Positions 5,439 through 16,000 of a DNA stretch of 64,000 nt are shown in pieces. How positions within the stretch are numbered: position 1 is the stretch's first letter; the number at the start of each line of letters is the position of its first letter. The DNA comes from Naegleria gruberi (Eukaryota), in assembly GCA_000004985.1 (NCBI GenBank), contig GG738871.1. One strand, 5' to 3'. Under the pieces are notes generated by a model. It was not told the origin of the DNA. It made no database searches and saw only the letters and a list, made by a program, of their open reading frames with translations. The position numbers and the translations under genes were made by a program.

Positions 5439-6947
5439 TTAAAATCTTTGAACTTCTAAGCCCTTAGTCTTGGATTCGTTCAAAATGAGTGGAGTAACAA
5501 AACATTCAGTTTCGTATTTGAAATTTTTCCAACTAGTTTCGACTTGATTCTTAACTGTTTGAATTGATTCTTCATTTGGAGCAAAGAGAATTGAAAAAAC
5601 TGCATCGTAACCTCCAGCACCTGGAACACCAGCAATTAAACAACCATTAGTTGCCATTGTTTCGTCCAAAAGTTTAGTTTGTTGATTAGGTTCAATTGGA
5701 ACATTTTCAGCTTGCTCTCCCATATATTTGAGCTTTTTACGAATTTCAATAAATGAATTTCTAATGGTTAACATGGCATCCTTGACTTTAGATGATACAG
5801 ATTCAACCTCTTCCCATTCACTTGCTGGTAATTGATACAATTTTTGTAAAGTATTTTCGTAATCTGATGGGAATTCCTTAGCTTGTTTGGAAATAATTTT
5901 GAATTGTTCCTCAACAGTATTATTCAAATCTCTAATAGAATTCCACAATTCAGTTGATTCAGTTGGATTTTGTTCCTTCCATTTGAGAACACATCTGACC
6001 ATACTTGGAGTATTGGATCCTTGGGCAACATCAGCAACAAACAAGTGGAAGTTAGGTGGTAATTCGAATGTCGAATTTTCATTGTCCCACACAAATTCCT
6101 TCTTTGGATCAACGACATTGATAATTTCAGTAATTGCTTGTTTGGAATATTTTGGATCAGATGGGTCAACCAATTTCATAATAGATTCCAAAATACTAGT
6201 TCCAAATCTCTTGTATCTTTGTGAGCCATAGGTAGCAGCTGAAACATCAAAACCACTTCCAATTTTACCTTGAGCGAGACAGTGACAGAATTGAGCAACT
6301 CTGTGAATCATTTCTCTACCATTTTCATCATTTATATCCAAACCAGTAAAGTGAAGAATAATAGCAGATGTCAATGAAGTAACCATAGATGCGCTACTTC
6401 CCAAACCAGTTTTTTGAATTGGTTTGTTTGAATCTGGATGAACGTAAAACTTTTCTAAATTTTCTAAATTTTCCAAAGTAACTTCCTTTCCCAAATCAAT
6501 CAACTATTTAATTATCATTCAAATATTATTGAATCACACATAAATACTAACATTTTGTCTTTGAGAATAAAAATCATTATCAGCTTGCAAAGTAATTGAA
6601 ATCTTTCTATTTTGAATCTTGGAGCCATTCAAATATTCAGAAATAGCCAAAGCATAAAGAATTGCATTTTCAATATATGGATTCTTGTTCATATTAACCA
6701 ATTTCAATTCACCTCCATTTTCACTTGATTCATAAACATATTGTCCACTCAAATAGAATTGTGGTGAATGTAAATCAATAACTAAACCACCACATGAAGT
6801 ATTTTCCACATTTTTAACATCTTTAATAGTTGTGTAAAATCTTGATGAAGTTGAAAGAACAAGTCCAGAATAATCAGGATCCAAAACTAAATATCCACCA
6901 GTGATGAGAACTTTTCCTGGAGCTGAAACAATTGTAGTTCTATTCAT
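5439..6947 (-). CDS. erg8: Phosphomevalonate kinase, ERG8-type GHMP kinase. Two exons, 6947..6552 and 6503..5439, in minus-strand order.
   Basis: N-terminus SAPGKVLITGGYLVLD and the motifs KTGLGSSA and AQGKIGSGFDV...YGS match yeast ERG8. A 48-nt intron (6504..6551) with a GTTAGT donor and an aaatag acceptor keeps the frame. Confidence 0.85.
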
Positions 6948-7264
6948 TCCGATAATAACAATTATTGCACATAATAATAAATTTGTAAATTTTACCTTTC
7001 CAATGTAGTAGTAGTAGTGGTGATGTTGCTTTTACAACAGGTAGTTGTTGTTGATTCGGGTTGTTTTTGATATTTGGCAAGTAAGTGTCCTAACAGGGTA
7101 CTGGTAAGCATAAAACCAGTGGTCAAGAGTGGTGATGGTTCTTGTGATGATGACATTTTTTTGTTGTGTGAAAATTGGTTGGGTTTCACAAATTGGGAAA
7201 TTGTAATAATTATTGTTGTGATTGAATATAATATATGTACAATTTATGCTTCTATTGAGCCTAA

Positions 7265-8371
7265 TTATTTCATTTCATAAATACTCTTTGTAATGCCAAG
7301 AGTGAGTTTTTGAATGACAAATTGGAGAGAATCTGGATTGTGACGGAATAATCCAAAGGCATGATGGAGAGAATAAAAGAGGAAGAGTAATAATTCAATC
7401 TCATCAATATGTTTGGCAAGTTCATCAAAGTAACGATCGGCTATGGTTTTGAAATTAATGTCACTCATTGTTTCTGTAAAGTAGAGAATGGCTAGGAAAA
7501 CTTTTCCTCCTGTGAATCGAGGTTGCAAATTCTCAAAGATGTCTACCTCACCTTGTTGATTATTCAGAGATCTTTCGAAAGATTGCATTGGTGTGAAAAT
7601 ATCATGAGCTATTTGACGTTCTCTTATTCTCTTTTTCGAGTCGCTGCTGTCAACTGAGTATTGCAAGTATGGATTACGGTATGAACAATGGTAAGTTGAA
7701 AATGGCTTAATCTTGAATAATTCCAAAAAAGATTCTAGTCTAAAGAATAATTTTGCATTCTTGATTCTTTCGTCTCTTAATAGAAAATTCCAAAGTAAAA
7801 AAGTTGATTTTTCACTCAAGGCATCCTTGAATATTTCATCTATTATGTCAAATATTAAAGTCCATGTTTCAATATTGAAATGACTTTTTCCAATGTCATT
7901 AGGAAGTTCATAGAAAGTATCTTTAGTGCTTGGATTTTCCTTGAGTGTTTTGTATAATTTAGAAACGGTTGAAAACTCCTTAACCAAAGTAGGTGCTACA
8001 AATTTAAAAACACCTTTCTTTCCTATAGTAAATAATTTAATATCAATTTCTGCGGAATTTACACAAGATTTCATAATACCTCTATTAATAATTGGTACTA
8101 TTAAATTATACAATTCGAGATTTTCTCTTAAATCTTCAATATTTAATTGTTGCAAAGTTTGTTCATTAATTATAAAATTATGACGATGATAGGGATTCAC
8201 CCGACGACCATCCGATTCAACAGGACTATAAAACCTCTTTTCAATTTCTTCTTTAAATACCTCTCGGATGAAATCATCATAAATTAATTTCAAACACATT
8301 AAACTTCCATCATCCACATCCGTTAAACTAAAATCTTCAGAGAGTAAATCAAAATCCATTCCTACGCGCAT
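7265..8371 (-). CDS. Hypothetical protein, 368 aa, no recognised domain.
   Basis: Long single ORF with a real ATG and an aaaaaaaaATG leader. Coding-like composition. Family not recognised by eye. Confidence 0.5.
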   Translation of the reverse strand: MRVGMDFDLLSEDFSLTDVDDGSLMCLKLIYDDFIREVFKEEIEKRFYSPVESDGRRVNPYHRHNFIINEQTLQQLNIEDLRENLELYNLIVPIINRGIMKSCVNSAEIDIKLFTIGKKGVFKFVAPTLVKEFSTVSKLYKTLKENPSTKDTFYELPNDIGKSHFNIETWTLIFDIIDEIFKDALSEKSTFLLWNFLLRDERIKNAKLFFRLESFLELFKIKPFSTYHCSYRNPYLQYSVDSSDSKKRIRERQIAHDIFTPMQSFERSLNNQQGEVDIFENLQPRFTGGKVFLAILYFTETMSDINFKTIADRYFDELAKHIDEIELLLFLFYSLHHAFGLFRHNPDSLQFVIQKLTLGITKSIYEMK

Positions 8372-8471
8372 TTTTTTTAATATTGTTTTTTGATGTTTGA
8401 TAGAAGTTGAATAATTATTTGATCACCATTCAAATGAGAAATAAATTGGTTACAACAATGTTAATAAATAT

Positions 8472-10451
8472 TTAATGTCTATTATTGGATGTATTTTCTG
8501 AAATATGGTTAAACCTGCTGGCGTGTCCTCGATTGTGAATTTGTGTTCTACAATCGCGACCATACCAACAAGTTGGTCTGGATGTTACAGTGGCAGGTAA
8601 GTCAGCAGAATCAATTTCAGCTCTATAACAGTAAATGAGTTCGTTAAAGTACTTGTAGGCACATGATTGACAGAATCGTGAATCAGTTGTAAAGTTTGGA
8701 TAGGAAGGGTGAGTGTAGGTGCCAGATTCAACCTTAGTCATGCATGTATTGTAAACATCCTGAACTGTAATATTCTTTGTTCTAATATAATCAATTAAGA
8801 TATCTCGTTCAACTTGATTATTGTTCAAACAAGTGGAAGGCAAAGAAATTATAGAAGTGTGTTCTTTGAGTTTGTGAATTCCTGAAATGTAGCATGGACT
8901 TTGAGTATTGGTAACTTGTTTGTATAAATTACAATAAATCATTCCACATAATTCACAGTTTTGTCTTCTATCAGGGGAAAGAGAAGTGTCATGGTGTCTG
9001 AAAGCTAATCTACAATTACATGTTGAACAAGAGTTATGGAGGGCATGAGCAGCACATTGATAGTTATCGATAGGATTTGGATTTGTACATTCATCACAAA
9101 CACGAACTGGCGTATCATCATCACTGTCACTTTCATCAGATGATGTCTCATCACGTCTGTTTCTTCTACGACGATGATAATCATCGTCACTATCGCTGTC
9201 ACTATCGTCATTATTATTATTATTTCTCTTATAGAGAACAAGATCAGTCTTATTAATGTAAGCATCCTTCTTGTCCATTTCCTCTTTTTCTTCCTTTTCA
9301 CGATCTTGCTTTGGATGTGTTTTCAAGTAAGTCTCTGTCAAGTTGTTCAATGTTGGATTTTTTCTAACTTCTTGGATGGTAGCTCTGCAAGTTGGACAAT
9401 TCATATTTTGACCAAAATATGAATTATTATTGCTTGGATTTAACCAAGAAGAAAGACATGAAGAGCAAAAGTTATGCAAGCATGGAATAACAGACACTGG
9501 TCTATAGAAGATACCAGAACAAATTGGGCAGGTCAATTCATTAGCCATTGCATCATCCTCTTGACTTTCTTCCATATCTGAATCAGTGGCACCAAGTAAG
9601 GCCAATAGCTTTTTGTCTTGTTCAGAGAGTGATTTCTTTTGTTTTTTTCCACTGCCATTTTCTGGTGTTTCACTTTCTGCTTTTCTCTTCTTCTCATTTT
9701 CGTCATCTGATTCTTTTTCAGAGCTAGCAGAGGCTGTGGCACTACTCGATGGATTTACGTCATCTTTGGATGGTGTCTTAAAAGGTGAGTTTCGTTTTGG
9801 TGTAGAAGTAGTATCAGAGCTTGGGGATGAAGCTCCAATGTTACTGGAACTGGCAGTAGCTGATGATGCATTTTCAACTGTTGCTGGTTCCACAGCAAGG
9901 TCTACTATTTCTTGAGTACGTTGCTCCTCTTGATCTGCCAATTCTTGTGTTTGTTGATTAGGAGGAGGTGTACTATTACAAAGTGCCAATGTGTAGATTG
10001 GTAATTCTGAGCTTAGTTTGTGAGAAATAGAGGGAACAACCAATCCTATCGTATCTCCCTCTGAAAGAATTACACTATTATTGGTACCAAGTTTCTTTCC
10101 ATTCACAAAACATCCATTTCTTCCAAGATCAGTGAATTGAATAGAATATTTAGTAGGATCGGAAGATGCCTTTCCTTCATCACAGATAATATTCACTCGT
10201 CCATGCACTGTTGATATTCTTCCATCAGAAAAAATACATTCGGGTCTAAACTCTGGCTTTCTTCCCAATTCAATTACCTTCTCATCACTATAAATTATTA
10301 TTGCATTAAAATTTGATGGTGAAATAGCAGGAATTAATTTTGCAATCTCTACTCTTTTCACCTCTGATTCTGCTATTACCTCGGATGATGGTGCATCATC
10401 TTCGTTATTATCGACAATAATTTCATCCAATGTTGCGTCGAGTGTGGCCAT
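8472..10451 (-). CDS. CHFR-like checkpoint E3 ubiquitin ligase, 659 aa, with FHA, RING and a C-terminal Cys-rich PBZ-like zinc finger.
   Basis: N-terminal FHA-like segment (...GRNGCFVNGKKL...). RING C3HC4 (CPICSGIFYRPVSVIPCLHNFCSSCLSSW...CPTCR). C-terminal CWYGRDCRTQIHNRGHASRFNH resembles the PBZ finger of CHFR. Confidence 0.7.
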   Translation of the reverse strand: MATLDATLDEIIVDNNEDDAPSSEVIAESEVKRVEIAKLIPAISPSNFNAIIIYSDEKVIELGRKPEFRPECIFSDGRISTVHGRVNIICDEGKASSDPTKYSIQFTDLGRNGCFVNGKKLGTNNSVILSEGDTIGLVVPSISHKLSSELPIYTLALCNSTPPPNQQTQELADQEEQRTQEIVDLAVEPATVENASSATASSSNIGASSPSSDTTSTPKRNSPFKTPSKDDVNPSSSATASASSEKESDDENEKKRKAESETPENGSGKKQKKSLSEQDKKLLALLGATDSDMEESQEDDAMANELTCPICSGIFYRPVSVIPCLHNFCSSCLSSWLNPSNNNSYFGQNMNCPTCRATIQEVRKNPTLNNLTETYLKTHPKQDREKEEKEEMDKKDAYINKTDLVLYKRNNNNNDDSDSDSDDDYHRRRRNRRDETSSDESDSDDDTPVRVCDECTNPNPIDNYQCAAHALHNSCSTCNCRLAFRHHDTSLSPDRRQNCELCGMIYCNLYKQVTNTQSPCYISGIHKLKEHTSIISLPSTCLNNNQVERDILIDYIRTKNITVQDVYNTCMTKVESGTYTHPSYPNFTTDSRFCQSCAYKYFNELIYCYRAEIDSADLPATVTSRPTCWYGRDCRTQIHNRGHASRFNHISENTSNNRH

Positions 10452-10730
10452 TTTTTTTCTCTGACTTTCTGGAGTTTTTTAGTGAAGGTAAAAAGAAGTT
10501 TTGCGATTGATACTAGTAATTGGCATCATCTGGAAGTTGTAAAACAGTTTGATCATAATTTGCTAATTCAATTTTCTGTTCCTCTATTGGAGGCTTAACA
10601 CAGAACAGAGTACAATCGTATGAGATTTTACAACGATTTTTCCAAATTCAATGAAATTAATAAATGAAACAAGCTAGTCGTGGTGAAGTTCTTTTCAATT
10701 TTCTCAACTTTTTCAAGTATTACAAAAAAA

Positions 10731-11264
10731 ATGTCGTCATTCTCCCTTTTTATAATTTTTCTCATTTTCCCGTGTTGCTGCATGATCTGCTCAGTTCACG
10801 CACAGCAATGCACTGTTATTGAAAAGACGTTGCCAACTTCAGCTTTTTGTTATGGATTTTCTAATTATTGGGTAACAGGCTCTGCCACTCTTCAATCCAT
10901 GGATTCTAAGGCTGTACAAATTTTCTCTGTTTTGAATGCCACTCTCCAGACACAGGATGCAATCACTAGTAGAAACGGTACTTCTGTTTCCGATAGGTGT
11001 ATTGACTATATGAAGAAGTATGCATGTTACACAGCCTATCCAAGATGTATTTTAGCAACTGGATATACTGCATATGATCAGAAACCATGTCCTAATATTT
11101 GTGGAGCTGTTGACAGTTATTGTCAGTATTCATTGACTAAGGTTAATAGTTTGATATGTACTGGTAATACCAATGACAGATCAACTTGTAATTCTTTTGC
11201 TATTTCACATAGATTGAGCTTGTTTATTGTAATCATTCTTTTTATTTCTGCTATTTTAACTTAA
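10731..11264 (+). CDS. Secreted Cys-rich protein with a Frizzled-type CRD-like pattern and a hydrophobic C-terminus suggesting a GPI anchor.
   Basis: Signal peptide after aaaaaaaATG. Cys spacing C..C...CIDYMKKYACYTAYPRC....PCPNIC....C fits the FZ CRD pattern. Hydrophobic tail LSLFIVIILFISAILT. The ORF-track start at 10680 is a non-ATG start. Confidence 0.45.
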   Translation: MSSFSLFIIFLIFPCCCMICSVHAQQCTVIEKTLPTSAFCYGFSNYWVTGSATLQSMDSKAVQIFSVLNATLQTQDAITSRNGTSVSDRCIDYMKKYACYTAYPRCILATGYTAYDQKPCPNICGAVDSYCQYSLTKVNSLICTGNTNDRSTCNSFAISHRLSLFIVIILFISAILT

Positions 11265-11452
11265 ATTAATTCTAATAAACTACCTGAAAAGGGTTTGCAT
11301 GAAATATTAAGATTTTGATACAAGGCTTCAATTCCTGGACTGATACATCTATCTCCGATCAATAAATTTTCAAACTAACTACGGATTTCAATTGTCGATA
11401 TTACAAAAAGTTCAGACCAAAGTAAAAAAACTCAAGTTCATAAAACAAAAAA

Positions 11453-12455
11453 ATGTCTATCCCGAAGATTCAAGAATTAAATCAAGACTTGCTACATGTA
11501 ATTTTTAGTCATCTAACGGAGGAGGATGTACACAATTTTATGATTTCCAACAAGTCTATTTATGAGTATTGTATAAGGGACGATGTTTATAAAATAATAT
11601 TTAATCAAGTGATTGATCGAGTTGAATTATTTCCTATGAAGGAAGTGTTCAATCCCGAGTCAAGAAATATGGAGGCCAATACTGAAAATACAAATCATAA
11701 ACTGAAGAATATTGAGAAAAATTATAGAAAGGAATTAGTGAAATATGGAAAAAACACCAAGTCAACCAATCGTTTTTTTACTAAGCAAGAAATTATGGAA
11801 ATGACTGTGGATACTAAAAAACTGAAAACAGCTACAGAAAATAAGGAAATCAAATTTGTAATAGTTGGAGATGGCGCTGTAGGAAAAACCACATTTTTAC
11901 GAAGGATTGCAATGCCAATGGATATTGATGCATTTATTCCAACAGTTTATGACTTTTATTCATATCAAGCAAAAAACCTATCATTTCAATTGTAGGATAG
12001 TGCAGGACAAGAAGAGTAAGTAATCATTTATTTTGAAAATGATTCAGATTTTTAGTTATGACAAATTAAGACCATTGTGTTATCCAGGAACGGAAATGTT
12101 CTTGTTGGCTTATTCAATAACTCAAAGAGAGAGCTTTTTCAATATTAAAAAGAAATTCATAAGGGAGGTGAAATATCATGTACCAAATGTGAATTGTGTA
12201 CTTGTTGCATGTAAAATTGATTTAAGAAATAATCAAGATGTAATGGACAGATTAGCAAAAAGATATGAACAACCAGTCTCATTTGAAGAAGGATTGAAAT
12301 TAGCCAAGCATTTGAAATGTTTAACTTTTTGGGAAACCTCATCTACAACTGAGGAAGGATTTGAACAAATAGGAGATTTCTTTACAAAATTATATTACCT
12401 GAAACATTCTTTGGCCTTCAAAGAAAACAAATCTAAAACTTGCTTTCTTCAATAA
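11453..12455 (+). CDS. F-box-like N-terminal domain fused to a Rho-family small GTPase with a C-terminal CAAX box. Two exons, 11453..12015 and 12056..12455. An in-frame TAG at 11993..11995 replaces the conserved Trp.
   Basis: LNQDLLHVIFSHLTEEDVHNFMISNKSIYEYC fits an F-box. KFVIVGDGAVGKTTFL (P-loop), PTVYDFYS (switch I), DSAGQED-YDKLRPLCYP (across a GTAAGT intron 12016..12055), CKIDLR and CAAX CFLQ fit a Rho GTPase. The expected LW-DSAGQ reads L-TAG-DSAGQ. Confidence 0.6.
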
Positions 12456-12544
12456 AATAAATAACATGATGAACTTCTCAGCAAACAACGAATGTTTAAA
12501 TGAACAATACCATCTTGTGTGTTTTATTAAGGTCCAAAATTGTT

Positions 12545-12625
12545 CGCGGTCTACAGGACTCGAACCTGTGCGGGTCACCCCAATTGATTTCTAGTCAATC
12601 ACCTTAACCACTCGGTCAAGACCGC
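12545..12625 (-). tRNA. tRNA-Ser (anticodon AGA) with a long variable arm.
   Basis: Reverse complement gives GCGGTCTTGACCGAGTGGTTAAGGTGATTGACTAGAAATCAATTGGGGTGACCCGCACAGGTTCGAGTCCTGTAGACCGCG. It has a 7-bp acceptor stem, an anticodon loop CTAGAAA, a GGTTCGAGTCC T-arm and a long variable arm. Confidence 0.8.
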
Positions 12626-12708
12626 TGTACATCCAATAAAATAACATAAACAAATTTCTGGCTAAATGAATAACGTATGTGGAAAACATTTCAAGTAAAC
12701 AAAAAATT

Positions 12709-12781
12709 TGCCGACACCAGGGATCGAACCAGGGACCTTAAGATCTTCAGTCTTACGCTCTCCCAACTGAGCTATGTCGGC
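12709..12781 (-). tRNA. tRNA-Phe (anticodon GAA).
   Basis: Reverse complement GCCGACATAGCTCAGTTGGGAGAGCGTAAGACTGAAGATCTTAAGGTCCCTGGTTCGATCCCTGGTGTCGGCA. Classic tRNA-Phe D-arm and T-arm; anticodon loop CTGAAGA. Confidence 0.85.
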
Positions 12782-13070
12782 TTCATATTCAGAATATATT
12801 CTATCTAGTATTGTTCTTGACTATCTAATTTAAACAGGAATTATTTTGTACATTAGCAAAAGAACACTTCCGTTTTAAGTAAGTTTTTTAAAACAACATT
12901 CAAATGCACCAATTAATTTATTATTTATACTATTTCAATTTTCGATTTACCAGTTAATTGTCTTTCATTAAGTGTTTCTAAAATGTGTTAAGATCTCTCT
13001 GTCACTTCTCAATCATAAAAAAAATAACACCAATCATCACCAATTTTAATCCTCATCATACGAATCCTTC

Positions 13071-16000
13071 ATGGTTTTCAGCTCATCCTCTAAAGAGGAG
13101 GCTTCTCTTCTCCACAACAATAACCATGAACAACAACAACAACACAATTCACCCAGCAACAGTAGTGGCGGGTTCAAATTTTCCCTCTCTTCTCTGATGG
13201 GCGCCAAAACCAAAACACAAAATAATAACAATAACACCTCAACTACAATTTCCGCCTCCTCATCAACCTTGGCATCATTGAATAATCCGTATGCTGCCTT
13301 TACAAATTCATTCTCCTCGGAGGGAATCCTTTCTAATTTAAATAATATTAATAATAATAATAATGGAAGTACATCAAGTAGTGGCAATAATACACCAAGA
13401 AGGAAAATATCAAATCCTAAAGCTATTCCTCTCCTGAATACAGCATTGATTTCTTCGAATTTAATTTCGGAACCAATAATTGATCATGGCACTACTGTAA
13501 ATTTTGCAACTGCTCAAGTTGATCATCCCAATACGAAACTCTATTCTATTATTCACGAATTACAATTAAATGTAAATTTTAATCAGGGAATGAATAGTGG
13601 TAATTGGACTGGATATTTTGAAGGAATATTACAGGAAAATGTTAATAATTTTGGATCACCTGGAATTGTTTCAACAACTCCGAGAGGAAATCATCATGTT
13701 ATTTCTCAATCAATGCCATATCTTTCAAATTCAAATCCTAATTCACCTTCGTCTTCGTCTTCATTTGGTGAGAAAACCAGAGGATTGAGGAATTTAGTAA
13801 TGGGAAAATCAATGAATAATTTAGATTTTTCGCCATCATCAATTAGTCAATTTGATGCCTACTTGATGAAGAAGGAAAGGAAATTATTACAAAAGTTTGG
13901 AAGATTTCCATATATAAGAATTTCTGCAGTCAAAAGTGGGAATGTTACTCCAAGAACTCCTCGAACGCCAAGAACTCCAAGAGCTAGCCCTCTTGTCATA
14001 ATGAGGCCAAAGGAAAATACAAGTAATATGGAGGAATTAGTATTGGATGCCGGAAGTCTAATACTTTCACCTAGACCAAGTATGTCATCAACACCAAGAT
14101 CTGATAGATCATTGGATGGTGATTCACCAATCACTGAATACTCAATTGATGATGTAACATTTCTTGATCGTCCAACAACTGACAATATTACTAACTTGTT
14201 AGAATCGAGGTATAACAAAAAGGATCAATCACAAAAGAAATCTCCCCAAGTTTATACTTATCTTGGAGATGCATTGAGTAAGTTTATTCTTTCAAATCAA
14301 GTGGTATTAATACTGGGCTAGTTTTTGTAAATCCAAATGATATTAAGGAAACTGAAGGATTGTATAAGAACAGCGTAATGCACTTTTACCACAAGAAACT
14401 TCCATTTGCTAGAGCTCCCCATATTTTTTCGATAGCAGAGAATGCATTTAGAACCATGAAAGAAACAAGGCAACCACAAACAATAATTGGTATGTATTTG
14501 TTTTAACATTAATTTATGACGTGAAAAATTACAATAGTGAATGGTGAAAGTGGTTCTGGAAAAACGGAGAGTAGCAAACTCATTCTCAAATATTTAACAG
14601 TTGTCTCACAAAATGGGCCTTCATCTTACTTTGTAAAACATGTATTAACAGAATCAAATCAACTTTTAGAAGCTTTCGGAAATGCAAAAACTCTGCACTG
14701 TGACAATTCATCCAGATTCGGTAAATATACTACTGTTTATTTTGGATTTGGTGATAGAATTGAAGGTGGAAAAATTAGTACAGTAAGTATAATTTAAATT
14801 ATCAAAACTCATTTCATCCTTTCAGATTCTGTTGGAAAAAAGTCACATTACGAATCAGAGAAAAAAGGAAAGAAATTTCCACATATTCTATCAGCTATGC
14901 AGAGGAGCAGATAGATCTATGAAAGAGGAATTCAATCTGCATGATCCATCTGAGTTCTTGTATCTAAACTCTACAGAGACAGTGATAGATGGAGTCGATG
15001 ATATGCGAGAATTTAAAAAAACAATTAAGAGTATGGATTCAATAGGATTTTCGAGTAATGACCGGAAAGAAATATTCAGGGTAGTTGCAGGAATTTTACA
15101 TTTAGGAAATATTCAATTTTTGGAAGGTAATTCAAAAGATAGAGCAGAAATAGTGGAAAATGATGCCCTCAAGTGGGCCTCATTATGCTTGGGAGTTCAA
15201 CCTAATCAACTAAAGCATGCTCTATTGGCACGTACTTTGAATACCGAGGAAAAGGTTGTTACTTTTCAAACTGCTGTTCAAGCTAGATTCAACAGGGATG
15301 CTCTGGCGAAAGGTATTTACGAGAGACTTTTTCTGTGGATAGTTCAGAAAATCAATTCAGTAATCAAACCAAAAACAAAGAAAATGGTTACAAAAATTGG
15401 TATTTTAGATTTGTATGGTTTTGAAATTTATCCATCCGATAACTCTCTAGAACAGTTGAATATCAACTTTGTAAATGAAAAACTTCAACAACACACATTG
15501 AAGCTCTTACAACAGGAGAAAGATGAATATGTGAAGGAAGGAATTTTCAACATGGATCTATTCACCATACTGTCTAAGGAGTTGAAAAAAGATTTTCTCT
15601 CTGATTTTGATACTATTAATGATTGTATTAGCTGTATAGAAGACAAACCACTGGGTATCTACTCACTCCTGGATGAAGAAGATTACCTTAACGTTTCAGG
15701 TGATGAAAGATATCTTGCTAAATTGAAAGAGAATTTGAAAAAGTCAAATAGTTTCGAACCTGCAAGATTCAAAAGTACTACCTTTAGTCTTAAACATTTT
15801 GCAGCTAAGGTAGATTATAACGTTACTGATTGGGTCAAAAAGAACAAGGATACATTGTTCAAAGATCTAATTGATGCCATGTGTAAGAGTTCGTCAGACC
15901 TGGTACAAGAACTTTTTAAACCATTAGACGACTTCTATTCAGGAAGAGAAAGCAAACGAAGACTTCAAGAAACCATTGTAAAACAATTTAAACGAGATGT

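What the first reader, a model, noticed from the sequence alone, without database searches (positions are those of the whole stretch)
11453..12455. F-box-Rho GTPase fusion gene with a TAG at the conserved Trp of the switch II region
An N-terminal F-box-like motif is fused to a complete Rho-type GTPase with a CAAX box, which is an unusual architecture. The conserved W of LW-D-AGQ is a TAG (11993..11995). Every other motif and the intron phase are intact.
Basis: seen in the sequence. Interest (0 to 1): 0.6.

Follow-up and report, generated by a model that had tools for sequence, protein, structure and literature searches.

The report
Known Naegleria F-box–Rac gene, one stop
This is a published Naegleria gruberi gene that joins an F-box to a Rac-type GTPase, and its single in-frame TAG is most likely a very recent knockout mutation or a base-call error, not a new biological mechanism.

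Summary
Window 11453-12455 (+) encodes a two-exon, 320-codon protein with an N-terminal F-box, a helical linker, a complete Rac-type GTPase and a CaaX box (CFLQ). Its only defect is TAG at 11993-11995, where the Trp of LWDxAGQ should be.

The window is Naegleria gruberi NEG-M. The TAG is in the GenBank reference, where it serves as the stop codon of the 108-aa model EFC43816.1/XP_002676560.1.

The architecture is not new. Herman et al. 2021 (PMC8296547) report the F-box as the commonest extra domain on Naegleria Rab, Rho, Ran and Gα GTPases. Their Table S8 lists this gene as a manually corrected "Rac" with W written at the TAG and no pseudogene flag.

The F-box is below Pfam threshold here (17.3 vs 20.5 bits). 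A profile of 14 paralog N-termini hits only F-box proteins in PDB (best 2e-8).

The window uses the standard code. I found no readthrough or editing signal, no orthologue and no independent sequence of the site.

Most likely this is a young nonsense lesion or null allele in a birth-and-death family (about 0.55). A sequencing error is the main rival (about 0.3). Interest is low.

The parts
11453..12015 (+). Exon 1 of the F-box–Rac gene (codons 1-187 plus 2 nt). Holds the F-box, the linker, the P-loop, switch I, the TAG and DSAGQE.
   Evidence: Same start and splice model as the manually corrected sequence in Herman et al. 2021 Table S8.
11468..11590 (+). F-box (residues 6-46: IQELNQDLLHVIFSHLTEEDVHNFMISNKSIYEYCIRDDVY).
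   Evidence: PF00646 17.3 bits, E=0.0046, profile positions 1-41 of 43, below the gathering score of 20.5. A leave-one-out profile of 13 paralog F-box segments scores it 38.9 bits, against a maximum of 9.5 in 2000 shuffles. The family profile hits only F-box proteins in PDB.
11669..11995 (+). CDS of the GenBank/JGI model EFC43816.1 = XP_002676560.1 = NAEGRDRAFT_68255 (108 aa). It uses the in-frame TAG as its stop.
11852..12371 (+). Rac-type GTPase domain (residues 134-293), interrupted by the TAG and by the intron.
   Evidence: Pfam Ras family E=1.8e-33. Best solved relatives are Rac1 (E=1e-39), Rac2/3, RhoA and Cdc42. The alignment is collinear, including the Rho insert, with a beta2-beta3 hairpin 4 aa shorter.
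11993..11995 (+). In-frame TAG (codon 181) at the Trp of LWDxAGQ. It is one G-to-A transition from TGG.
11992..11997 (+). Cryptic 5' splice site GTAGGA (GTGGGA if the codon were TGG). Splicing 11992..12055 stays in frame and removes L*DSAGQE.
   Evidence: Non-consensus compared with the GTAAGT/GTATGT donors of ORF-bridging introns in the window. Inference only.
12016..12055 (+). Intron, 40 nt, GTAAGTAA...TTTTTAG, phase 2.
   Evidence: Typical of window introns, which are 38-53 nt with GTAAGT or GTATGT donors.
12056..12455 (+). Exon 2 (codons 188-320 plus TAA stop at 12453-12455). Holds the rest of switch II, G4 (CKID), the Rho insert, G5 (ETSS) and the CaaX box CFLQ (12441-12452).

Best explanation
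**What it is (near certain).** The locus is NAEGRDRAFT_68255 of Naegleria gruberi NEG-M. It belongs to a Naegleria-specific, rapidly expanding subfamily of Rac GTPases. Members carry an N-terminal F-box, a roughly 80-residue helical linker and a C-terminal CaaX prenylation signal.

**How intact members probably work (inferred).** They would act as membrane-anchored SCF (Skp1-Cul1) components. The F-box docks on Skp1. The Rac domain supplies nucleotide-dependent partner binding, or is itself regulated by the ligase. This parallels RhoBTB proteins acting with Cul3.

**This copy (most likely).** It carries a genuine single-base nonsense change, TGG to TAG, at the switch-II Trp codon. It would then be a very young pseudogene or a null allele, possibly heterozygous. 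Normal splicing at the perfect GTAAGT donor leaves the UAG in the mRNA. Translation would stop after residue 180. That product holds the F-box, the linker and only the first third of the GTPase fold, so it could not be a working GTPase.

**What is shown and what is not.** Shown: the gene's identity and architecture, and the presence of the TAG in the reference assembly. Inferred: that the TAG is a real genomic change rather than a base-call error, and everything about function. The confidence of 0.55 refers to the TAG being a real genomic lesion.
For: **Organism and locus**
- Five window ORFs are identical to N. gruberi proteins on a 417,575-bp scaffold.
- The GenBank model XP_002676560.1 ends exactly at this TAG.

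**Family and architecture**
- Herman et al. 2021 report more than 80 Rho genes in N. gruberi, with the F-box as the most frequent added domain.
- They describe coding-sequence-disrupting mutations as birth-and-death evolution in the F-box-bearing Rab-like clades.
- Their Table S8 flags several Rac entries as putative pseudogenes.
- The gene aligns end to end with F-box-annotated paralogs, for example XP_002676320 at E=3e-43 over residues 12-289.
- Three of the ten paralog N-termini pass the Pfam F-box threshold.
- The family profile hits only F-box proteins in PDB: 40 of 40 hits, best 2.2e-8, Skp2 1.9e-6.
- The leave-one-out profile scores this gene 38.9 bits.
- The GTPase domain's best hit is Rac1 at 1e-39, with the Rho insert aligned.

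**Lineage-specific and likely dispensable**
- No one-to-one N. fowleri orthologue is listed.
- Only its own model and one paralog appear among 1.84 billion representative proteins.

**A single, recent lesion**
- All G motifs, the splice sites and the CaaX box are intact.
- The chance of a 133-codon open frame after the stop is about 3e-5.
- The change is a G:C-to-A:T transition in a 33% GC genome.

**TAG is an ordinary stop here**
- Stop-free stretches of at least 200 codons end in TAA 26 times, TAG 3 times and TGA 3 times.
- No other pair of long frames is separated by a TAG.
- The closest paralog itself ends in TAG.
Against: - A single lesion in an otherwise perfect gene is also what a consensus base-call error would look like.
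- Herman et al. wrote W at this codon in their hand-corrected sequence and did not tick "putative pseudogene". They either judged the stop an error or had evidence for TGG. No explanation was found in their supplements.
- No independent read, contig or transcript of this site could be obtained. Neither the reality of the A nor its zygosity is shown.
Confidence: 0.55

Rival explanations
1. Base-call or assembly error. The true genomic codon is TGG, the gene is intact, and it encodes a functional 320-aa F-box–Rac, as the published corrected model implies.
For: - There is only one defect. Every motif, the intron and the CaaX box are intact.
- The curated sequence in Herman et al. 2021 Table S8 reads W here and carries no pseudogene flag.
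Against: - A finished Sanger whole-genome consensus is expected to carry few base errors, and only a small share of substitutions create a stop. This prior rests on my general knowledge and was not measured here.
- The family is documented to contain genes with disrupted coding sequences, so a real lesion has the higher prior.
- Nothing in the window itself suggests poor sequence quality: there are no N runs, and neighbouring ORFs are identical to GenBank proteins.
Confidence: 0.3
2. Splicing bypass. The same G-to-A change turns GTGGGA into GTAGGA at 11992. Using this upstream donor with the normal acceptor (12055) removes the stop and the DxxGQ motif in frame. The result is a 312-aa G3-less F-box pseudo-GTPase resembling the closest paralog.
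For: - The 11992..12055 splice is in frame and gives ...NLSFQ-F-YDKLRPL....
- The closest paralog (XP_002671994 family) has its intron at the codon equivalent to the TAG. It lacks exactly WDSAGQE, yet it keeps an intact ORF in NEG-M and in a 98.8%-identical environmental strain.
- Loss of G3 is therefore tolerated in this clade.
Against: - GTAGGA departs from the strong GTA[A/T]GT donor consensus of window introns at positions +4 and +6.
- A perfect GTAAGT donor lies only 24 nt downstream and should win.
- There is no transcript evidence.
Confidence: 0.05
3. Programmed recoding. The UAG is read as Trp, either by translational readthrough or by restorative A-to-I mRNA editing (UAG to UGG). The editing route would resemble the one described for premature-stop genes in Fusarium and Neurospora.
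For: - The codon is one A-to-G change from the conserved Trp, and the rest of the gene looks selected.
- Fungal restorative editing of UAG to UGG is a real precedent (PMC10776026, PMC5496914, PMC11156358).
- A published curated sequence has W at this codon.
Against: - No known readthrough context is present: the sequence is UAG-GAUAGU, with G at +4 and no CARYYA-type motif. This rests on established knowledge of such motifs.
- The local RNA fold is not significant (z = -1.15), and the UAG sits in a weak stem rather than a hairpin loop.
- TAG terminates other long ORFs, and there is no second TAG-interrupted gene in 64 kb.
- To my knowledge no nuclear mRNA editing or stop reassignment has been reported for Naegleria. 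I did not run a literature search on this point.
Confidence: 0.05

Closest known systems
Naegleria F-box–Rac/Rho paralogs (Herman et al. 2021, BMC Biol 19:142, PMC8296547, Additional file 4 and Table S8), e.g. XP_002676320.1, XP_002671699.1, XP_002678060.1, XP_002671994.1
   Same: - Same organism and same layout: F-box (L-N/P-x-D/E-hydrophobic-x-x-I-x-S/K-F/Y-L), an NP and N-F/Y-R-x-x-L linker, a Rac domain with CKxD and ETSS variants, and a C-a-a-Q/L/M tail.
- This gene is itself an entry in that table.
   Different: - This copy has a TAG at the switch-II Trp codon in the reference genome, while the table shows W.
- It is not annotated as F-box in the table because its own Pfam score is sub-threshold.
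- It is only about 30% identical to any paralog.
XP_002671994.1-type paralog (closest N-terminal relative; environmental-strain copy on L002)
   Same: - It is the closest relative of the N-terminal extension (49 bits; 35% identity).
- It has the same two-exon structure with a phase-2 intron, and collinear exon 2.
   Different: - The paralog has lost the seven codons WDSAGQE through a 21-nt shift of the exon-1 boundary, and it has a degenerate P-loop region.
- It is an intact ORF in two strains.
- Our gene keeps a textbook G3 motif but has the stop.
RhoBTB proteins (Rho domain plus BTB domains; Cul3 ligase adaptors)
   Same: A Rho-family GTPase domain is fused to a cullin-RING-ligase adaptor module. 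RhoBTB proteins are also present in Naegleria. This is the best functional analogy for how an intact F-box–Rac would work.
   Different: - The adaptor is an F-box (Skp1/Cul1 route), not BTB (Cul3 route).
- The adaptor is N-terminal, not C-terminal.
- A CaaX box is present.
- No biochemical data exist for the F-box type.
TbFRP, the FYVE–F-box–GTPase of Euglenozoa (PMC3593210)
   Same: It is a Discoba protein that joins an F-box to a Ras-superfamily GTPase. Its authors link the F-box to rapid turnover.
   Different: - The TbFRP GTPase is Rab18-like, not Rho.
- TbFRP has a FYVE domain.
- Its authors found no N. gruberi orthologue, so the fusion arose independently.
Fungal restorative A-to-I editing of premature UAG codons (Fusarium graminearum PUK1/AMD1-type genes; PMC10776026, PMC5496914)
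   Same: An apparently intact gene carries a single in-frame TAG at a Trp codon.
   Different: - Editing sites there sit in hairpin loops and are supported by RNA-seq.
- Here there is no supporting structure, no transcript data and no known editing system in the organism.

Membership tests
Rho/Rac family small GTPase | G1 P-loop GxxxxGK[ST] | tested here: met
   GDGAVGKT at residues 139-146.
Rho/Rac family small GTPase | Switch I Thr and G3 DxxGQ (switch II) | tested here: met
   IPTVYD and DSAGQE are aligned to Rac1 T35 and D57-Q61. The codon immediately before D is the TAG.
Rho/Rac family small GTPase | Rho insert between beta5 and alpha4 | tested here: met
   DLRNNQDVMDRLAKRYEQPVS aligns without gaps to Rac1 [21 protein letters not shown]. 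The 60 best PDB hits listed are all Rho-family proteins (Rac, RhoA, Cdc42, TC10, Rho1).
Rho/Rac family small GTPase | C-terminal CaaX prenylation box | tested here: met
   CFLQ followed by the stop. The same tail type occurs in paralogs: CFLQ, CLIQ, CIIQ.
Rho/Rac family small GTPase | Uninterrupted coding sequence | tested here: not met
   TAG at codon 181 in the window and in the GenBank reference.
F-box domain (PF00646/PF12937) | Score above Pfam gathering threshold | tested here: not met
   PF00646 scores 17.3 bits against a cut-off of 20.5. PF12937 scores 12.6 against 24.3.
F-box domain (PF00646/PF12937) | Profile-level homology to solved F-box domains | tested here: met
   - A 14-sequence family profile that includes this protein returns 40 of 40 hits to F-box proteins: FBXW21 2.2e-8, FBXO3 1.2e-7, Skp2 1.9e-6, beta-TrCP 2.4e-5.
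- A leave-one-out profile scores this protein 38.9 bits, against at most 9.5 in 2000 shuffles.
F-box domain (PF00646/PF12937) | Binding to Skp1 | not testable with these tools
   The usual Leu-Pro is Leu-Asn here and in most paralogs. The consequence for Skp1 binding is unknown.
Naegleria F-box–Rac subfamily (Herman et al. 2021) | N-terminal extension alignable with F-box-annotated Naegleria Rac paralogs, and listed among N. gruberi Rac genes | tested here: met
Pseudogene or null allele | Disabling mutation present in genomic sequence | tested here: met
   It is present in the window and implied by the GenBank CDS end. This is a single assembly only.
Pseudogene or null allele | Confirmation by independent reads; zygosity; loss of expression | not testable with these tools
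   No other contig or transcript of the locus was found.
Programmed stop-codon recoding (readthrough or UAG-to-UGG editing) | Recoding signal: readthrough context, or a hairpin-loop editing site; recurrence in other genes | tested here: not met
   - The context is UAG-G with no known motif.
- The local fold has z = -1.15 with the UAG in a stem.
- TAG terminates 3 of 32 long ORFs, and no other TAG-interrupted gene is present.
Programmed stop-codon recoding (readthrough or UAG-to-UGG editing) | Transcript or protein evidence of Trp at codon 181 | not testable with these tools
   No N. gruberi transcript data are reachable. Neighbouring genes also lack Logan-derived entries, so this absence is uninformative.

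The most novel reading that the evidence does not exclude
The UAG is real in the genome but is converted to a Trp codon in the mRNA by restorative A-to-I editing, or is read through. This would make the locus a conditionally expressed F-box–Rac and the first case of nuclear stop-codon recoding in a heterolobosean. It would also explain why a curated published sequence shows W at this codon.
Probability: 0.05. Interest if true: 0.75.

Novelty: already known. Interest (0 to 1): 0.18.

Why it matters
As it stands this is a housekeeping point, with three modest consequences.

- **Annotation mismatch.** GenBank calls the gene a 108-aa "predicted protein" that stops at the TAG. The literature shows a 320-aa Rac with Trp there. 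Anyone using either sequence should know that they differ at a stop codon.
- **A dated gene-death event.** If the TAG is real, this is a cleanly dated, single-hit gene death in a family already proposed to evolve by birth and death.
- **How switch II is lost in this clade.** The closest paralog lost exactly the G3 motif through a shifted exon boundary and survived as an intact ORF. Together with this gene, that hints at how pseudo-GTPases arise here.

Only the low-probability recoding reading would be of wide interest.

Tried and rejected
**Searches for an independent copy of the site (all empty)**
- Exact look-up of the 180-aa truncated product, and of hypothetical TGG products (188, 116, 320 aa), in 15 billion proteins.
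- Look-up of contigs for P0127.
- A DNA pattern with N at the variable base in JGI metagenomes.
- A protein-guided scan of JGI metagenomes.
- An ENA metagenome (ERZ929261) does hold N. gruberi-like contigs at 98.8% identity. They stop at window 10768, and no copy of this gene or of the downstream neighbour was found.

**Orthologue search**
- The N-terminal 132 aa were searched against 1.84 billion representatives. This found only the gene's own model, one paralog and a spurious bacterial repeat protein.

**Readings considered and rejected**
- *Dictyostelid origin.* This was my first guess from poly-N/Q proteins and base composition. Exact matches to N. gruberi proteins rejected it.
- *TAG as the 3' end of an intron (…ttgtag|GAT).* The upstream sequence is collinear with Rac switch I and beta2-beta3, so no exon could be lost there.
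- *Reassignment of TAG as a sense codon.* Stop usage in the window rejects it.

**Not done**
- No structure prediction was run. The paralogs needed for a useful alignment come from a paper, so the tool would not accept them. The sequence-profile evidence for the F-box was already decisive.

Full report
**1. Observation**

Reading window 10800-13200 and translating it confirms the finding at the stated coordinates.
- The ATG is at 11453, and exon 1 runs to 12015.
- A 40-nt intron (12016-12055, GTAAGTAA...TTTTTAG) splits an Asp codon in phase 2.
- Exon 2 ends at TAA (12453-12455).
- The spliced frame has 320 codons and one internal stop: TAG at 11993-11995, codon 181, in ...NLSFQL*DSAGQEDYDKLRPLCYP....
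- In an alignment with human Rac1 the stop falls on Trp56.
- Stop codons occur at 0.075 per codon in this 33% GC sequence. The chance of a 133-codon open frame after the TAG is about 3e-5. The downstream part is therefore a real, still-open coding sequence.

**2. Where the window comes from, and what the databases say about the locus**

- Five long ORFs in the window are identical to Naegleria gruberi NEG-M proteins (EFC43819, 43821, 43825, 43829, 43910) on a 417,575-bp scaffold.
- A search with the N-terminal 141 residues found one protein, P0127. It is EFC43816.1 = XP_002676560.1 = NAEGRDRAFT_68255, a 108-aa "predicted protein".
- P0127 maps to window 11669-11995 and ends ...NLSFQL followed by this TAG.
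- So the TAG is in the reference assembly, and the automatic annotation used it as the stop codon.

**3. The gene and its architecture are already published**

- Herman et al. 2021 (BMC Biol 19:142, PMC8296547) analysed Ras-superfamily GTPases of N. gruberi and N. fowleri.
- Their supplementary text reports more than 80 Rho genes in N. gruberi.
[quoted passage not shown] - Their Table S8 contains this very gene as "Rac", a manually corrected model of XP_002676560.1.
- That 320-aa sequence is identical to my splice model, except that it has W where the DNA has TAG.
- The entry carries no "putative pseudogene" tick and no F-box label.
- No one-to-one N. fowleri orthologue is listed. I found no comment on the stop.

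**4. Is the N-terminus an F-box?**

- On its own the protein is sub-threshold: PF00646 gives 17.3 bits (E=0.0046; cut-off 20.5), although it covers profile positions 1-41 of 43.
- I took 14 further full-length paralogs with N-terminal extensions from Table S8. The gene aligns with them end to end. Examples are XP_002676320 (F-box-annotated) at E=3e-43 over residues 12-289, and XP_002671994 over residues 5-315.
- Of ten paralog N-termini scanned, three pass the PF00646 threshold and four more give weak F-box or F-box-like hits at the aligned position.
- A profile of 14 N-terminal segments (alignment A1) searched against all PDB sequences returned 40 hits. Every one is an F-box protein: FBXW21 2.2e-8, FBXO3 1.2e-7, Skp2 1.9e-6, beta-TrCP 2.4e-5, and also TIR1, GID2, Fbw7 and Cdc4.
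- A profile built without this gene scores it at 38.9 bits, against a maximum of 9.5 bits in 2000 shuffles.
- The F-box assignment is therefore sound at the family level. The usual Leu-Pro is Leu-Asn in this family, so Skp1 binding is inferred, not shown.

**5. Is it a complete Rho GTPase?**

Yes, apart from the stop.
- Pfam Ras family gives E=1.8e-33.
- The best solved relatives are Rac1 (1e-39), then Rac2/3, RhoA and Cdc42.
- The best database relatives are Rac/Cdc42-type proteins at 41-45% identity, over the GTPase domain only.
- P-loop, switch I Thr, DSAGQE, CKID, ETSS and the Rho insert all align without gaps to Rac1.
- The one indel is a beta2-beta3 hairpin 4 aa shorter. Paralogs XP_002676320 and XP_002677510 share it, so it is a subfamily trait and not decay.
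- The CFLQ tail matches the CaaX tails of paralogs.

**6. What is the TAG?**

*Genetic code.* It is standard in this window.
- Stop-free stretches of at least 200 codons end in TAA 26 times, TAG 3 times and TGA 3 times.
- The five verified ORFs have no internal stops.
- No other pair of long same-frame segments is separated by a TAG.
- The closest paralog itself terminates with TAG.
- Only tRNA-Ser(AGA) and tRNA-Phe(GAA) lie in the window.

*Recoding signals.* None were found.
- The context is UAG-GAUAGU, with G at +4 and no known readthrough motif (established knowledge).
- The 81-nt local fold is not better than shuffles (z = -1.15), and it puts the UAG in a weak stem rather than a hairpin loop.
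- Fungal UAG-to-UGG restorative editing prefers a hairpin loop (PMC11156358).

*Splicing.*
- The 40-nt GTAAGT intron is typical of the window. ORF-bridging introns there are 38-53 nt with GTAAGT or GTATGT donors.
- The G-to-A change also turns GTGGGA into GTAGGA at 11992.
- Splicing from 11992 to the normal acceptor is in frame and removes L*DSAGQE.
- That donor is non-consensus, and a perfect donor lies 24 nt downstream.

*Independent sequence.* None could be obtained.
- An ENA metagenome assembly contains N. gruberi-like contigs 98.8% identical to the window. They end at window 10768 and do not include this gene.
- Neighbouring genes have no Logan-derived entries either. The absence of transcripts in the collection is therefore uninformative.

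**7. Weighing the explanations**

- A real TGG-to-TAG transition fits several facts.
  - The family is large and lineage-specific, and it already contains flagged pseudogenes.
  - The gene has no orthologue outside N. gruberi.
  - The genome is AT-rich, and Naegleria is described as mainly a heterozygous diploid (PMC9928731). The assembly may therefore show one null allele.
  - Because there is only one lesion, the event must be recent.
- A base-call error gives exactly the same picture. The W in the published curated sequence favours it slightly.
- My estimates are:
  - real lesion, about 0.55
  - sequencing error, about 0.30
  - splicing bypass, about 0.05
  - recoding, about 0.05

**8. Mechanism**

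For intact family members the most likely mode of action is inferred by analogy with RhoBTB-Cul3 and from the general role of F-boxes. It would be a prenylated, membrane-bound Rac domain tethered through its F-box to Skp1-Cul1. That would couple the nucleotide state either to ubiquitylation of bound partners or to its own turnover.

For this copy as assembled, translation stops after residue 180. The product has an F-box, a linker and only the beta1-beta3 part of the G domain. It lacks switch II, G4, G5 and the CaaX box. It cannot be a working GTPase.

**9. A side observation that bears on the family**

- The closest paralog is XP_002671994. Its environmental-strain copy on L002 is 293 aa and differs from the NEG-M sequence at 4 residues.
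- It has a canonical 38-nt GTAAGT intron exactly at the codon equivalent to our TAG.
- Its exon 2 is collinear with ours. It therefore lacks precisely WDSAGQE, yet it is an intact ORF in two strains.
- Loss of G3/switch II is thus tolerated in this clade. This is why the splicing-bypass idea is kept as a rival and not dismissed.

**10. Verdict**

The remaining question, real nonsense allele or assembly error, is a routine one that a read pile-up would settle.

Noticed in passing
L002 1123-2045 (ENA ERZ929261 contig k127_112041); compare window 11990-12056: The closest paralog (XP_002671994 type) has its phase-2 GTAAGT intron (L002 1611-1648) at the codon equivalent to the TAG. It lacks exactly the seven codons WDSAGQE, so G3/switch II was lost by a 21-nt shift of the exon boundary. 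Its ORF is intact in NEG-M (published protein) and in a second strain, with 4 aa differences in 293.
   Followed up: partly
window 11669-11995 versus Herman et al. 2021 Table S8: The GenBank protein XP_002676560.1 is a 108-aa fragment ending at the TAG. The published manually corrected sequence of the same accession is 320 aa with Trp at that codon and no pseudogene flag. The two public versions disagree at a stop codon, without comment.
   Followed up: partly
L001 1-95 versus window 10769 onward: An ENA metagenome contig is 98.8% identical to window 6240-10768. Its first 95 nt are unrelated and GC-rich. This is either a chimeric contig end or a structural difference in that strain inside ORF 10680-11264, just upstream of the Rac gene. 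No copy of the Rac gene or of the 13071-14321 ORF was found in that assembly.
   Followed up: partly
window 12545-12625 (-) and 12709-12781 (-): tRNA-Ser(AGA) and tRNA-Phe(GAA) genes sit on the opposite strand, starting 90 nt downstream of the Rac stop codon.
   Followed up: no
window 10680-11264 (+): The upstream neighbour is a Cys-rich ORF that ends in a hydrophobic tail (…RLSLFIVIILFISAILT). It looks like a secreted or membrane-anchored protein. I did not examine it further.
   Followed up: no
window 13071-14321 (+): This 416-aa low-complexity ORF overlaps over only 16% of its length with the GenBank model XP_002676561.1 ("myosin, partial", 712 aa). The annotated gene structure downstream of the Rac gene may also need revision.
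   Followed up: no
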